Shown here piece after piece: positions 26,979 through 29,747 of a stretch of DNA of 36,759 nt; position 1 is the first letter of the stretch; every line of letters starts with the position of its first letter. The stretch comes from Candidatus Parabeggiatoa sp. HSG14 (GTDB lineage: Bacteria > Pseudomonadota > Gammaproteobacteria > Beggiatoales > Beggiatoaceae), in the NCBI RefSeq assembly GCF_030378085.1, contig NZ_JAUCGK010000008.1. One strand, given 5' to 3'. The notes beneath the pieces were generated by a model that made no database searches, was not told where the DNA came from, and worked only from the letters and a program-made list of their open reading frames with translations. The position numbers were made by a program, and so were the translations under genes.

Positions 26979-29747
26979 ATGAACTTAAAAAAATTCAAAT
27001 TACGGTATGTTACGAAGCTAGTCGGGTTAGCGGCATTGAGTTGTCTACCATTCGCACAGGCAGCAACAGATTGTGCTGTTCAGACTCAAATTGATAAAGA
27101 AGAGTGTCAAGCTCTGGTTGATTTGTATACCAGCACGAATGGTGCTAATTGGAAAAGGAACACCGGCTGGAATATGACAAATACACCTTGTAGTTGGAAA
27201 GGGGTTTCATGTGACGGTGGGCATGTCACCCAACTCTCTCTGTACGATAACCAATTAAGCGATTCTATCCCTGAGTCATTGGGCAAGTTGAGCCGTTTGC
27301 AGGAACTCAATCTGTTCTATAACCAACTAAGCGGTTCTATCCCTGAGTGGTTGGACAATTTAACCCAGTTGCAGGTACTCGTTCTGTCCGATAACCAACT
27401 AAGCGGTTACATCCCTGAGTCGTTGGGCAAGTTGAGCAATTTGAAGGAACTCCTTCTGGACAATAACAAACTAAGCGGTTCTATCCCTGATTCGTTGGGC
27501 CAATTGAGCAGTTTGCAGAACCTCTATCTACATAATAACCAACTAAACGGCTCTATCCCTGATTCGTTGGGCAAGTTGAGCAGTTTGCTGCAACTCTCTC
27601 TGTACGATAACCAATTAAGCGATTCTATCCCTGAATCGTTGGGCCAGTTGAGCCAGTTGAAGGCATTTCATCTGCACGAAAACCAACTAGACGGTTTTAT
27701 CCCTGAGTGGTTGGGCAATTTAACCCAGTTGCAGACACTCATGCTGAACAATAACAAACTAAACGGTTCTATCCCTGAGTCGTTGGGCCAGTTGAGCCGT
27801 TTGGTGTATCTTAATCTGAACAATAACCAACTAAGCGGTTCTATCCCTGAGTCGTTGGGCCAGTTGAGCAATTTAGCGTATCTCGATTTGCACGAAAACC
27901 AACTCTGCGGAAACATCCCACAATCATTGATGAATCTAAAATATTATGTAAATTTAAATAACAACCACTTAACGGCTTCTAACCCTAAACTGATTGCTTG
28001 GCTTAATGCCCAAAATCCGGATTGGACAAAGAATCAAACGCGCTGTTCAACAGTTTGTGCTGTTCAAACTCAAATTAATGAAAAGGAGTGTAATGCTCTT
28101 GTTGATTTTTATATCAGGACGAATGGTGCTAATTGGAGAAAGAACACCGGCTGGAATGTGACGAATAGTCCTTGTAATTGGAAGGGAGTTTCATGTGACA
28201 ATGGGCATGTTACCAGACTCAATCTGTCCAGTAACAAACTAAGCGATTCTATCCCTGAATCGTTGGGTAAATTGAGCAGTTTGCAGGAACTCGAGCTGGG
28301 CAGTAACAAATTAAGCGGTTCTATCCCTGAGTCGTTGGGCAAGTTGAGCAATTTGCAAATACTCGCTCTGTACAATAACAAACTAAGCGGTTCTATCCCT
28401 GAGTCGTTGAGCAAGTTGAGCAGTTTGCAGGAACTCGAACTGAACAATAACAAATTAAGCGGTTCTATCCCTGAATCGTTGGGTAAGTTGAGCAGTTTGG
28501 AGGAACTCGAACTGAACAATAACAAACTAAACGGTCCTATCCCTGAATCATTGGGTAAGTTGAGCAGTTTGCAGATACTCGCTCTGTCCAGTAACAAATT
28601 AAGCGATTTTATTCCTGAGTCGTTGGGCAATTTGAGCAGTTTGCAGTATCTCTTTCTGTTCGGAAACCAACTAAACGGTTTTATCCCTGAGTCGTTGGGC
28701 AAGTTGAGCAGTTTGGATCATCTCTTTCTGTACAATAACCAACTAAGCGGTTTTATCCCTGAGTCGTTGGGCAAGTTGAGCAGTTTGGAGTATCTCTTTC
28801 TGTACAATAACCAACTTTGCGGAAACATCCCACAATCATTGATGAATTTGAGTAAAACTACATTGATTGCTTTAAATAACAACCACTTAACTGCTTATAA
28901 CCCTGAACTGATTGCTTGGCTTAATGCCAAAAATCCTGATTGGGAAAAGAGTCAAACGCCCTGTCCAACAGTTTGTGCTATTCAGACTCAAATTGATGAA
29001 AAGGAGTGTCATGCTCTTATTGATTTTTATACCAGTACAGATGGTGCTAATTGGAGAAAGAATACTGGCTGGATGACGAATAGTCCTTGTAATTGGAAGG
29101 GAGTTTCATGTGACAATGGGCATGTCACCCGACTCAATCTGTCCAGAAACCAACTAAGCGGTTCTATCCCTGAATCGTTGGGCCAGTTGAGCCATTTGAA
29201 GGGACTCATTCTACACGAAAACCAACTAAGCGGTTCTATTCCTAAATCGTTGAGCCAGTTGAGCCAGTTGGAAAGATTAGGGCTGAACAATAACCAACTA
29301 AACGGTTCTATCCCTAAATCGTTTGGCAAGTTGAGCCAATTGGAAAGATTAAGGCTGAACAATAACCAACTAAACGGTTCTATCCCTAAATCGTTAGGCA
29401 AATTGACTCAGTTGGAGTGGTTCGCGCTGAACAATAACCAACTAAGTGATCCTATCCCTGAATCGTTGGGCAATTTGAATCAGTTGAAGTATCTCATTCT
29501 GTCCGAAAACCAACTAAGCGGTTCTATCCCTGAATCGTTGGGCAAGTTAAACCGTTTATGGTCTCTCAATTTGAACAATAACCAACTCTGCGGAGACATC
29601 CCATTATCATTAATGAACCTGAGTGAAACTTCCTTATCGCTAACTCTAGGTGTCAACCACCTAACAGCCTCAGATTCTAAACTGATTGCTTGGCTTAAAA
29701 CCAAAAATTCGACTTGGGCAGAAAATCAAACGCCCTGTCCAAAATAG
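26979..29747 (+). CDS. Secreted leucine-rich-repeat protein made of three plant-type LRR modules
   Basis: It has a signal peptide 'MNLKKFKLRYVTKLVGLAALSCLPFAQA'. Each module has an N-cap ('CAVQTQIDKEECQALVDLY.STNGANW..NTGW...PC.WKGVSCD.GHVT.L.L'), 9-11 copies of a 24-aa plant-specific LRR ('L..N.LSGSIPESLGKLS.LQ.L'), and a C-cap ('LCGNIPQSLMNL....NNNHLTA.NPKLIAWLNA.NPDW...QT.C'). Modules start at about 27063, 28056 and 28975. Confidence 0.85.
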   Translation: MNLKKFKLRYVTKLVGLAALSCLPFAQAATDCAVQTQIDKEECQALVDLYTSTNGANWKRNTGWNMTNTPCSWKGVSCDGGHVTQLSLYDNQLSDSIPESLGKLSRLQELNLFYNQLSGSIPEWLDNLTQLQVLVLSDNQLSGYIPESLGKLSNLKELLLDNNKLSGSIPDSLGQLSSLQNLYLHNNQLNGSIPDSLGKLSSLLQLSLYDNQLSDSIPESLGQLSQLKAFHLHENQLDGFIPEWLGNLTQLQTLMLNNNKLNGSIPESLGQLSRLVYLNLNNNQLSGSIPESLGQLSNLAYLDLHENQLCGNIPQSLMNLKYYVNLNNNHLTASNPKLIAWLNAQNPDWTKNQTRCSTVCAVQTQINEKECNALVDFYIRTNGANWRKNTGWNVTNSPCNWKGVSCDNGHVTRLNLSSNKLSDSIPESLGKLSSLQELELGSNKLSGSIPESLGKLSNLQILALYNNKLSGSIPESLSKLSSLQELELNNNKLSGSIPESLGKLSSLEELELNNNKLNGPIPESLGKLSSLQILALSSNKLSDFIPESLGNLSSLQYLFLFGNQLNGFIPESLGKLSSLDHLFLYNNQLSGFIPESLGKLSSLEYLFLYNNQLCGNIPQSLMNLSKTTLIALNNNHLTAYNPELIAWLNAKNPDWEKSQTPCPTVCAIQTQIDEKECHALIDFYTSTDGANWRKNTGWMTNSPCNWKGVSCDNGHVTRLNLSRNQLSGSIPESLGQLSHLKGLILHENQLSGSIPKSLSQLSQLERLGLNNNQLNGSIPKSFGKLSQLERLRLNNNQLNGSIPKSLGKLTQLEWFALNNNQLSDPIPESLGNLNQLKYLILSENQLSGSIPESLGKLNRLWSLNLNNNQLCGDIPLSLMNLSETSLSLTLGVNHLTASDSKLIAWLKTKNSTWAENQTPCPK

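What the first reader, a model, noticed from the sequence alone, without database searches (positions are those of the whole stretch)
26979..29747. Plant-receptor-like LRR ectodomain triplicated in a secreted bacterial protein
Each of the three modules has an N-cap with the plant LRRNT_2 look ('ECQALVDLY.STNGANW..NTGW...PCSWKGVSCD.GHVT'). The LRRs are the 24-residue plant-specific type ('L..N.LSGSIPESLGKLS.L..L'). There is also a conserved Cys-containing C-cap ('LCGNIPQSLMNL'). This is the organisation of plant LRR receptor-kinase ectodomains and PGIPs, which is rare in bacteria. The modules and LRR units are near-identical at the DNA level, implying recent duplication and likely copy-number variation. 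The antisense 'ORFs' in the track are repeat artefacts. The gene is preceded by the tandem CRISPR-like hairpin cluster and followed by a perfect 12-bp hairpin.
Basis: partly seen in the sequence, partly recalled or inferred. Interest (0 to 1): 0.5.

Follow-up and report, generated by a model that had tools for sequence, protein, structure and literature searches.

The report
Exported triple plant-type LRR protein
A giant sulfur bacterium (Candidatus Parabeggiatoa) encodes an exported protein made of three tandem leucine-rich-repeat domains of the type best known from plant receptor ectodomains; it is real, but it is one ordinary member of a very large, uncharacterised bacterial family rather than a rarity.

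Summary
The ORF at 26979..29747 (+) is real. It encodes 922 aa: a Sec-type signal peptide followed by three self-contained modules. Each module has a 4-Cys N-cap that passes Pfam LRRNT_2, then 10, 9 or 7 perfectly phased 24-residue LRRs that all fit the plant-specific consensus. Each ends in a family-specific C-cap (LCG, one degenerate LRR, a helix, a final Cys).

Three claims need correction. The repeats are not near-identical in DNA: LRR units average 73% identity and modules 78-83%, and the longest exact repeat is 52 nt. The architecture is not rare: the N-cap profile hits 5,851 representative protein clusters at E<=1e-10, and most of the best have 2-20 caps per protein. These proteins are concentrated in Beggiatoaceae and filamentous Chloroflexota. 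The caps are a bacterial subtype, about 25% identical to plant caps, with 4 Cys rather than mostly 2.

The window is a contig of Candidatus Parabeggiatoa sp. HSG14. The most likely function is a multivalent exported binding or adhesion scaffold; the ligand is unknown. It is a new member of a known kind.

The parts
26979..29747 (+). Complete gene, 922 codons plus TAG stop: an exported tri-modular plant-specific-type LRR protein. The mature form is 894 aa, about 98.6 kDa, pI 5.6.
26979..27062 (+). Sec-type signal peptide, aa 1-28 (MNLKKFKLRYVTKLVGLAALSCLPFAQA|ATDC). It has a basic n-region (4 K/R in the first 12 aa), a hydrophobic core and an AQA-A cleavage motif. There is no lipobox.
   Evidence: The same AxA|ATDC junction is conserved in homologues. 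No dedicated signal-peptide predictor was available.
27063..27221 (+). N-cap 1 (aa 29-81). It has 4 Cys (C32, C43, C71, C78) and matches LRRNT_2 over aa 41-79.
   Evidence: (27.9 bits)
27222..27941 (+). LRR array 1: 10 plant-specific-type LRRs of 24 aa (aa 82-321). The last unit carries the LCG Cys (C310).
27942..28055 (+). C-cap 1 (aa 322-359): a degenerate LRR (NLNNNHLT), the helix LIAWLNAQNPDW and the final Cys C356. Only 3 residues (STV) separate C356 from the first Cys of module 2.
28056..28205 (+). N-cap 2 (aa 360-409), with 4 Cys (C360, C371, C399, C406).
   Evidence: (21.0 bits)
28206..28853 (+). LRR array 2: 9 LRRs of 24 aa (aa 410-625). The last unit carries C614.
28854..28973 (+). 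C-cap 2 (aa 626-665), with final Cys C662.
28974..29120 (+). N-cap 3 (aa 666-714), with 4 Cys (C666, C677, C704, C711). It shares a 52-nt exact repeat with N-cap 2.
   Evidence: 24.9 bits
29121..29624 (+). LRR array 3: 7 LRRs of 24 aa (aa 715-882). The last unit carries C871.
29625..29744 (+). C-cap 3 (aa 883-922), with final Cys C920. The protein ends ...NQTPCPK with no anchor domain and no TM segment.
29747..29782 (.). Perfect 12-bp inverted repeat (GTAGAGACACAC / GTGTGTCTCTAC, 12-nt loop) directly after the stop codon. It is a possible transcript-end hairpin, but no T-run follows it on the + strand.

Best explanation
The gene encodes a soluble protein exported through the Sec pathway in Candidatus Parabeggiatoa sp. 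HSG14. After signal-peptide cleavage at AQA|ATDC, the mature 894-aa chain folds into three independent LRR solenoids of the plant-specific class, with 10+1, 9+1 and 7+1 repeats. Each solenoid is closed by its own Cys-bearing N-cap and C-cap. Each module has 6 Cys, which I infer form three disulfides made in the periplasm. The junctions between solenoids are short and predicted with lower confidence.

Each solenoid keeps a nearly invariant convex scaffold (NxLSGSIPxSLGKLS) and carries variable residues on the concave beta-sheet face. I therefore read the protein as a multivalent binding or adhesion scaffold with three different ligand surfaces, acting in the envelope or on or beyond the cell surface. 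The ligand is unknown.

It belongs to a large paralogous family that is expanded in giant filamentous sulfur bacteria (Beggiatoaceae) and filamentous Chloroflexota. In that family the same capped module is strung 1 to about 20 times and is often fused to other extracellular domains.

Shown: the architecture, the LRR class, the fold, the family membership and the distribution. Inferred: signal-peptide cleavage, disulfides, final location, and ligand binding or adhesion.
For: -
- The plant-specific class is supported by the consensus (26 of 26 units) and by LRRNT_2 passing for each cap.
- PDB sequence hits are all plant LRR-RK ectodomains in the top 40.
- The AF2 model of module 3 has pLDDT 93.7 and pTM 0.91, with two strands plus a short helix per repeat. 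This is the beta-beta-3_10 unit described for plant-specific LRRs in PMC5976695.
- The top 50 Foldseek PDB hits are all plant LRR ectodomains, MIK2 at TMq 0.81-0.83.
- The full-length AF2 model has mean pLDDT 90.3 but pTM 0.49, with pLDDT dipping to 62-69 at the two module junctions. That fits three well-folded domains whose relative orientation is not fixed.
- Variability is concentrated at LRR positions 2, 3, 5, 7 and 8 (2.2-3.6 bits), against at most 1.8 bits at scaffold positions 9-23.
- Export is supported by the signal-peptide features and by the absence of any other hydrophobic segment; the highest 19-residue Kyte-Doolittle mean outside the signal peptide is 1.04.
- The AxA|ATDC junction is conserved in homologues.
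- The mature protein has 18 Cys, 6 per module, at conserved positions.
- Family size and distribution come, and multi-module relatives.
- Relatives carry extracellular-type partner domains: Calx-beta, fn3, cohesin, Big, PPC, T9SS Por_Secre_tail and proteases.
- The organism was identified from exact matches of neighbouring proteins.
Against: - There is no experimental data for any family member, as far as I could find.
- Nothing in the sequence tells whether the protein stays in the periplasm or leaves the cell.
- There is no conserved gene neighbourhood to hint at a partner.
- Variability on the concave face could also be simple relaxed constraint.
- The exact 922-aa sequence is not in the protein collection although its neighbours are. 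The deposited annotation may therefore use another start or treat the gene differently.
Confidence: 0.6

Rival explanations
1. The protein is a periplasmic resident rather than a surface or secreted protein. It would act as an envelope scaffold or binding partner, for example for peptidoglycan or outer-membrane components, inside the large and complex envelope of a giant sulfur bacterium.
For: The only targeting signal present is a Sec signal peptide. There is no lipobox, autotransporter domain, T9SS tail, sortase-like signal or other anchor. Cys-rich caps fit the oxidising periplasm.
Against: Relatives are fused to typical cell-surface or extracellular domains such as Calx-beta, cohesin, fn3, Big and Por_Secre_tail. 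Type II secretion substrates carry no recognisable motif, so the lack of a signal does not argue for retention.
Confidence: 0.2
2. The protein is the sensing half of a recognition or signalling system analogous to plant pattern-recognition receptors. It would detect foreign molecules or kin and pass the signal to a separately encoded membrane partner.
For: It is structurally similar to plant peptide and PAMP receptors. Its concave face is diversified. The family is expanded in multicellular filamentous bacteria.
Against: The protein has no TM segment or signalling domain. No partner gene is conserved next to family members. It matches no known defence system. None of the bacterial relatives listed carries a kinase domain.
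Confidence: 0.1
3. The protein is a host-targeted effector that mimics plant or eukaryote LRR receptors, like the Xanthomonas XopAE, XopL and XopAC LRR effectors.
For: The best NCBIfam hits are XopAE (243.7 bits), XopAC (207.8 bits) and XopL (118.6 bits).
Against: All of these scores are far below the curated cutoffs of 600, 450 and 500, and the matches cover only LRR stretches. The protein has a Sec signal peptide and Cys-rich caps, which type III effectors lack (established knowledge). No effector catalytic domain is present. The organism is a free-living sediment sulfur oxidiser (PMC11172852). The window holds no T3SS genes.
Confidence: 0.04
4. The gene is a recent transfer from a plant or alga, or eukaryotic contamination of the assembly.
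For: The LRRs and N-cap core are plant-like. The gene has an outlying GC3 of 0.49, against 0.21-0.35 for the other 19 genes of the contig.
Against: The gene sits in a bacterial contig between bacterial genes (Lnt, UDG, a response regulator). It has a bacterial signal peptide and no introns. Its N-caps are about 25% identical to plant caps but 56-78% identical to Beggiatoaceae and Chloroflexota caps, and they carry the bacterial 4-Cys pattern. The high GC3 is confined to the LRR arrays (0.53-0.58), while all six caps have host-like GC3 of 0.29-0.34. That points to propagation of one repeat unit's codons, not a foreign gene.
Confidence: 0.03
5. The three-module structure is an assembly artefact, produced by collapse or mis-joining of repeats in a short-read metagenome or single-filament assembly.
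For: The gene is repetitive, with a 72-nt period and three related modules.
Against: The longest exact repeat is only 52 nt and the modules differ at 17-22% of aligned bases, so ordinary reads can place them uniquely. The reading frame is intact, with perfect 24-aa phasing and complete caps at every junction. Multi-module relatives exist in many independent assemblies.
Confidence: 0.05

Closest known systems
Plant LRR receptor-kinase ectodomains (GSO1/SGN3 6s6q, MIK2 8web, FLS2 4mn8, PEPR1, PSKR, HAESA, ERL1)
   Same: They share the 24-residue plant-specific LRR consensus, the LRRNT_2-type N-cap core (helix, then W, then CxWxGVxC) and the same repeat geometry. They are the top sequence and structure matches, at 30-38% identity and TMq up to 0.83. 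An 'LCG' Cys in the last LRR is also typical of plant C-caps (own knowledge).
   Different: The bacterial protein has no transmembrane helix or kinase. It has three separately capped short solenoids instead of one long one. Its N-cap carries an extra N-terminal Cys pair outside the Pfam model. Its C-cap is long, with an extra degenerate LRR, a helix and a distant Cys, and matches no Pfam family. The caps are only about 25% identical to plant caps.
Polygalacturonase-inhibiting protein (PGIP, 1ogq / 8ikw)
   Same: PGIP is a secreted, soluble, disulfide-capped plant-specific LRR domain of about 10 repeats with no membrane anchor. Each module here is of PGIP-like size and organisation. PGIP is a Foldseek hit with TMt 0.57-0.59.
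   Different: PGIP is a single module, is 24% identical, has a different C-cap and comes from plants. Nothing suggests a polygalacturonase target here.
Uncharacterised bacterial multi-module LRRNT_2/PS-LRR proteins of Beggiatoaceae and Chloroflexota (for example Ca. Parabeggiatoa sp. nov. 3 P0050/L011, L003, L004; Thiomargarita nelsonii loci; P0001, P0030, P0010)
   Same: These share the signal peptide with the AxA|ATDC junction, the 4-Cys N-cap, the PS-LRRs and the C-cap (LCG...NNNHLT...LIAWL...W..QT.C), arranged in tandem modules. They are up to 60% identical over aligned parts. This is the family the gene belongs to.
   Different: Module number ranges from 1 to about 20 and LRR number per module varies. 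Many relatives add Calx-beta, PKD-like, cohesin or other C-terminal domains that this protein lacks. Synteny is not conserved.
Xanthomonas type III effectors with LRRs (XopAE, XopAC/AvrAC, XopL)
   Same: They are bacterial proteins whose LRRs resemble the plant-specific class, and they are the best NCBIfam models.
   Different: Scores are far below the family cutoffs. Those proteins are injected cytoplasmic effectors without Sec signals or Cys caps, and they carry effector domains that are absent here (own knowledge).
Slit (animal guidance protein) tandem LRR domains D1-D4
   Same: The architectural analogy is several short LRR solenoids in a row, each with its own Cys-rich N- and C-cap, joined by short linkers in a secreted protein (own knowledge; not tested here).
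   Different: Slit has a different LRR class ('typical') and different cap families (LRRNT/LRRCT), and it comes from animals. There is no sequence relationship beyond the LRR motif.
Listeria internalins and Leptospira LIC LRR proteins
   Same: They are bacterial exported LRR proteins used for adhesion or host binding. Leptospira LIC11098 (4u08) is the best bacterial PDB match.
   Different: Internalins use 22-residue SDS22-like repeats with different caps (own knowledge). Their scores are far weaker than those of plant proteins: 7e-57 against 2e-154, and inl_like scores 89.6 bits against a cutoff of 1275.

Membership tests
Plant-specific (PS) LRR class | Repeat length of 24 residues with the consensus LxxLxLxxNxL(s/t)GxIPxxLGxLxx | tested here: met
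   All 26 canonical units are exactly 24 aa. 26 of 26 fit a PS pattern and 0 of 26 fit the 'typical' pattern. I16, P17 and L23 are invariant, G14 occurs in 21 of 26 units and G21 in 20 of 26. The consensus is as quoted in PMC13618415.
Plant-specific (PS) LRR class | A beta-beta-3_10 structural unit and geometry like solved plant LRR ectodomains | tested here: met
   The AF2 model (pLDDT 93.7) shows two strands plus a short helix per repeat. The top 50 Foldseek PDB hits are all plant LRR ectodomains. The unit is defined in PMC5976695. This rests on a prediction, not an experimental structure.
Pfam LRRNT_2 (PF08263) | Score at or above the gathering threshold (20.7 bits) | tested here: met
   The whole protein scores 38.7 bits over 3 stretches. 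The isolated caps score 27.9, 21.0 and 24.9 bits. Cap 2 passes only narrowly and matches only the C-terminal half of the model.
Plant LRR receptor-like kinase / receptor-like protein | A single-pass transmembrane helix after the ectodomain, plus a cytoplasmic kinase in RLKs | tested here: not met
   No Pfam kinase domain is present. No hydrophobic segment exists outside the signal peptide; the highest KD-19 mean is 1.04. The protein ends 2 residues after the last cap Cys.
Plant LRR receptor-like kinase / receptor-like protein | One N-cap and one C-cap around a single LRR solenoid, with a plant-type C-cap in which the Cys pair is a few residues apart | tested here: not met
   The protein has three capped modules. 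The two C-cap Cys are about 45 residues apart, with an extra LRR and a helix between them, and no Pfam family matches the C-cap tail. The plant C-cap spacing comes from my own knowledge.
Bacterial multi-module 4-Cys-cap PS-LRR family (Beggiatoaceae/Chloroflexota; unnamed) | N-cap xTDCAxVTxIxxxECxAL..Y.ST.G.NW..N.GW..T..PC.W.GV.C..GHV with 4 conserved Cys | tested here: met
   All three caps align without gaps other than one residue. They are 53-78% identical to family caps, and all 87 Beggiatoaceae and Chloroflexota caps examined have 4 Cys.
Bacterial multi-module 4-Cys-cap PS-LRR family (Beggiatoaceae/Chloroflexota; unnamed) | C-cap NxLCGxIPxSLMNL, then a degenerate LRR (NNNHLT), then xLIAWLxxxNPxW, then QTxC | tested here: met
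   The C-cap is present in all three modules and in homologues. It is 52-65% identical to the C-caps of other genomes.
Bacterial multi-module 4-Cys-cap PS-LRR family (Beggiatoaceae/Chloroflexota; unnamed) | A Sec signal peptide cleaved directly before the first cap (AxA|ATDC) | tested here: met
   The query has ...PFAQA|ATDC. Homologues have ...PLAQA|ATDC...LGQA|ATDC and ...FVQA|ATDC. Cleavage itself is inferred.
NCBIfam XopAE / XopAC / XopL type III effectors | Whole-protein score above the curated cutoff (600 / 450 / 500 bits) | tested here: not met
   The scores are 243.7, 207.8 and 118.6 bits, and the matches cover LRR-only stretches.
Internalin / Yersinia-Salmonella (SlrP, YopM) bacterial LRR classes | 20-22-residue repeats of the bacterial or SDS22-like class, with the family model above its cutoff | tested here: not met
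   The repeats are 24 aa. inl_like_NEAT_1 scores 89.6 against a cutoff of 1275, and SlrP scores 60.9 against 1113.
Known anti-phage defence systems (PADLOC) | A match to a defence-system protein model | tested here: not met
   The LRR protein matches 0 families.

The most novel reading that the evidence does not exclude
The capped PS-LRR module (LRRNT_2-type cap plus 24-residue plant-specific LRRs) may be an ancient bacterial invention. It would have been massively expanded in multicellular filamentous bacteria (Beggiatoaceae, Chloroflexota), where multi-module exported proteins like this one would mediate cell-cell, kin or partner recognition. The plant receptor ectodomain would then be a descendant or sister of this bacterial module, not its source. 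On that reading this family would be a bacterial counterpart of plant surface-receptor recognition and a route to the origin of plant LRR-RK ectodomains.
Probability: 0.1. Interest if true: 0.65.

Novelty: new member of a known kind. Interest (0 to 1): 0.3.

Why it matters
For this gene alone, little changes. It is one more member of a big family of exported bacterial LRR proteins, and plant-specific LRRs in bacteria were already reported (Miyashita et al. 2013, Natural Science 5:580, cited in PMC13618415 and PMC9471246; I could not read the paper itself).

The family as a whole is more interesting. Thousands of proteins carry a self-contained, disulfide-capped, plant-type LRR module strung in tandem, and they are concentrated in giant sulfur bacteria and filamentous Chloroflexota that share sulfidic mats. 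No function has been tested. If the modules are surface recognition or adhesion units, they could explain how these filaments, their sheaths and their epibionts stick together. They also bear on the direction of the plant-bacteria LRR transfer debate.

Tried and rejected
- An exact look-up of the protein in the assembly and protein collections found nothing on record. The organism was identified from neighbouring proteins instead.
- A word-indexed search with the N-cap profile returned only short fragments (49-109 aa) and said little about distribution. The exhaustive representative search and the genome scan were used instead.
- The afdb50 fold library was unavailable.
- Conserved neighbourhood was tested by running tblastn with eight window neighbours against the 76 family loci. 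There were no hits, so no operon partner emerged.
- A defence-system association was tested and rejected.
- The Xop-effector reading was rejected because the scores fall below the curated cutoffs.
- The recent-HGT or contamination reading was rejected on cap identity, Cys pattern and host-like GC3 in the caps.
- The CRISPR reading of the upstream cluster was rejected. It has no spacers, single copies occur elsewhere, and no Rfam family matches.
- The downstream hairpin was tested as an intrinsic terminator for the + strand. No T-run follows it, and the scan only calls it on the - strand, where the run TATTTTGG follows.
- Literature searches for LRR proteins in Beggiatoa or Thiomargarita, and for LRRNT_2 in prokaryotes, found nothing relevant.
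- Disulfide pairing could not be checked because model coordinates are not exposed.

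
Full report
**What is there.** The window is a whole 36,759-bp contig of Candidatus Parabeggiatoa sp. HSG14, a giant sulfur bacterium of the Beggiatoaceae. Six neighbouring proteins match its NCBI records exactly. The finding's coordinates coincide with a complete ORF at 26979..29747 (+) encoding 922 aa.

The N-terminus, MNLKKFKLRYVTKLVGLAALSCLPFAQA|ATDC, has a basic n-region, a hydrophobic core and an AxA motif, and it has no lipobox. 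No other segment is hydrophobic enough to be a membrane helix. Homologues keep the same AxA|ATDC junction. I infer Sec export and SPase I cleavage; no dedicated predictor was available.

**Module anatomy.** The mature chain consists of three modules starting at aa 32, 360 and 666. Each module contains, in order:
- a 49-50-aa N-cap with four Cys, spaced x10, x27 and x6;
- 10, 9 or 7 LRRs that stay in perfect 24-residue register;
- a C-cap, which begins in the last canonical LRR (NQLCGxIPxSLMNL), continues through one degenerate LRR (NNNHLT) and a helix (LIAWLNAxNPDW), and ends at a final Cys.

That final Cys lies only 3 residues before the first Cys of the next module. The mature protein therefore has 18 Cys, six per module. 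I infer three disulfides per module.

**Class of the repeats.**
- The unit consensus is LxxLxLxNNQLSGSIPESLGKLS. All 26 canonical units fit a plant-specific-class pattern and none fits the 'typical' class. The consensus is as quoted in PMC13618415 and the classes are listed in PMC2946307 and PMC5976695.
- Pfam LRRNT_2 is passed by the whole protein (38.7 bits, 3 stretches) and by each cap alone (27.9, 21.0 and 24.9 bits against 20.7).
- A PDB sequence search with module 1 puts plant LRR receptor-kinase ectodomains in the top 40 places (GSO1 2e-154). The first bacterial protein, Leptospira LIC11098, comes at 7e-57.
- An AF2 model of module 3 is confident (pLDDT 93.7, pTM 0.91) and shows two strands plus a short helix per repeat.
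- Its 50 best Foldseek matches in the PDB are all plant LRR ectodomains. They include MIK2 (TMq 0.81-0.83), FLS2, PSKR and PGIP.
- Internalin-type and SlrP-type models score far lower.

**Corrections to the observation.** The DNA is not near-identical.
- LRR units share a mean of 73% identity (50-93%).
- Whole modules share 78-83%, N-caps 85-92% and C-caps 75-84%.
- The longest exact repeat is 52 nt.

The modules are only slightly closer to each other than to the best homologues in other genomes, which are 71-76% identical. The triplication is thus intragenic but old, or kept partly alike by conversion. The same divergence makes an assembly artefact unlikely.

The gene's GC3 (0.49) is an outlier on the contig, where the other genes range from 0.21 to 0.35. 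The excess lies only in the LRR arrays (0.53-0.58), and all six caps are host-like (0.29-0.34). I read this as propagation of one repeat unit's codons rather than recent foreign origin.

The antisense ORFs are periodic translations of the repeat arrays. The 12-bp hairpin after the stop codon is real, but no T-run follows it on the + strand.

**Not rare, and a bacterial subtype.**
- The whole-protein search returned thousands of hits. Most of the top 120 are bacterial or metagenomic, including Parabeggiatoa and Halobeggiatoa proteins, and many have 2-9 N-caps.
- The best 76 loci are Beggiatoaceae plus filamentous Chloroflexota and one Flavobacteriaceae MAG. The Beggiatoaceae include Thiomargarita nelsonii with more than 20 loci, Parabeggiatoa, Marithrix, Thioploca and Albibeggiatoa. 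The Chloroflexota include Anaerolineae, Caldilineales, Viridilinea and Chloroploca.
- An exhaustive profile search of 1.84 billion representatives found 19,573 / 5,851 / 653 proteins at E<=1e-3 / 1e-10 / 1e-30. All 150 best have 2-20 caps each. One example has ten modules interleaved with another domain.
- Within plus or minus 4 kb, 24 of 69 loci already show two or more caps in one ORF.
- The module alignment shows that both caps are conserved family-wide.
- N-caps are 56-62% identical within and between Beggiatoaceae and Chloroflexota, but only about 25% identical to plant caps. All 87 Beggiatoaceae and Chloroflexota caps have four Cys, whereas the plant caps sampled mostly have two.
- The first Cys pair lies outside the Pfam model, and the C-cap tail matches no Pfam family.

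So the protein works like a plant-type LRR ectodomain at the level of the repeat. It is a member of a distinct bacterial family, not of the plant RLK/RLP families: it has no TM helix, no kinase and no single-solenoid organisation.

**How it most likely works.** The full-length AF2 model has high local confidence (mean pLDDT 90.3) but a low pTM of 0.49, and pLDDT dips to 62-69 exactly at the two junctions. The picture is three rigid capped solenoids on short hinges, not one long superhelix.

Sequence variation among the 26 units is concentrated at positions 2, 3, 5, 7 and 8 of LxxLxLxx, the concave beta-sheet face. The convex scaffold is nearly invariant. Relatives combine the module with Calx-beta, fn3, cohesin, Big, PPC, protease and T9SS-tail domains.

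I therefore favour an exported, disulfide-stabilised, multivalent binding or adhesion scaffold with three distinct ligand surfaces. The ligand and the final location (periplasm, surface, sheath or medium) are not determined.

There is no conserved neighbour and no defence-system match. The Xop effector models fall far below their cutoffs.

**Comparison and novelty.** Plant-specific LRRs in bacteria have been reported (Miyashita et al. 2013, cited in PMC13618415 and PMC9471246; I could not read it). I found no paper on this family in large sulfur bacteria.

The gene is a new member of a known kind. The family-level traits (4-Cys cap, long C-cap, tandem capped modules, expansion in filamentous mat bacteria) deserve description, but they are not specific to this locus. 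The tandem capped-domain layout is analogous to animal Slit D1-D4; that comparison is from my own knowledge and was not tested here.

**Verdict.** Interest is modest at 0.3.

Noticed in passing
window 31675..34293 (-): An 872-aa ORF has the full eukaryotic Major Vault Protein architecture by Pfam: Vault repeats 6e-68, MVP_shoulder 1e-51, and Vault_2, Vault_3 and Vault_4. It matches no NCBIfam model. A complete MVP homologue in a Beggiatoaceae contig is unusual, and no paper linking MVP with Beggiatoa was found.
   Followed up: partly
window 26700..26960 (and L077-L086): The intergenic element upstream of the LRR gene has two 57-nt direct copies 70 nt apart and one inverted copy. Each copy contains the hairpin CAACCCCTATCGGGGTTG. 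The core occurs once each in 10 metagenome contigs, always intergenic and next to unrelated genes. A second hairpin shows compensatory changes between copies (CCACCGG/CCGGTGG, CCCTAGG/CCTAGGG, CCATAGG/CCTATGG). No Rfam family matches and it is not a CRISPR array. It looks like a dispersed palindromic (MITE/REP-like) element or a structured RNA.
   Followed up: partly
window 23348..26590 (+): A 1080-aa protein has a long coiled-coil region built from 120-nt and 78-nt tandem DNA repeats (82-87% identical) and a C-terminal FGE-sulfatase (SUMF1/EgtB/PvdO-like) domain at 3.9e-53. NCBI names it a SUMF1/EgtB/PvdO family nonheme iron enzyme. The architecture is unusual and the function is unknown.
   Followed up: no
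window 26979..29747: The LRR gene's GC3 (0.49) is far above that of every other gene on the contig (0.21-0.35). The excess is confined to the LRR arrays (0.53-0.58), and the caps are host-like (0.29-0.34). C-ending codons for Asn and Ile, and CCT for Pro, are strongly preferred in the repeats. The cause could be a repeat founder effect or selection for expression; this was not resolved.
   Followed up: partly
window 18502..20139 (-), 22841..23260 (+), 5297..8746 (+), 15427..16158 (+): The contig carries scattered mobile or defence-type genes. They are a protein with a contractile-injection-system spike-tip domain, an HNH nuclease resembling PtuB (Septu), an Eco57I-type methylase-restriction fusion, and a Uma2 endonuclease. 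No complete system was recognised.
   Followed up: no
window 3080..5202 (+): Two adjacent ion-channel genes are present. One is a GluR0-like ligand-gated channel (SBP_bac_3 plus Lig_chan). The other is a pentapeptide-repeat protein fused to an ion-channel pore. These are eukaryote-like signalling parts typical of large sulfur bacteria.
   Followed up: no
L035-type loci; genome-contig scan: Anaerolineales bacterium HSG25, which carries the same sample prefix as HSG14, and many other filamentous Chloroflexota carry the same 4-Cys N-cap. Their caps are as similar to Beggiatoaceae caps (58%) as Beggiatoaceae caps are to each other (62%). This suggests exchange of the module between two unrelated filamentous mat-dwelling phyla.
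   Followed up: partly
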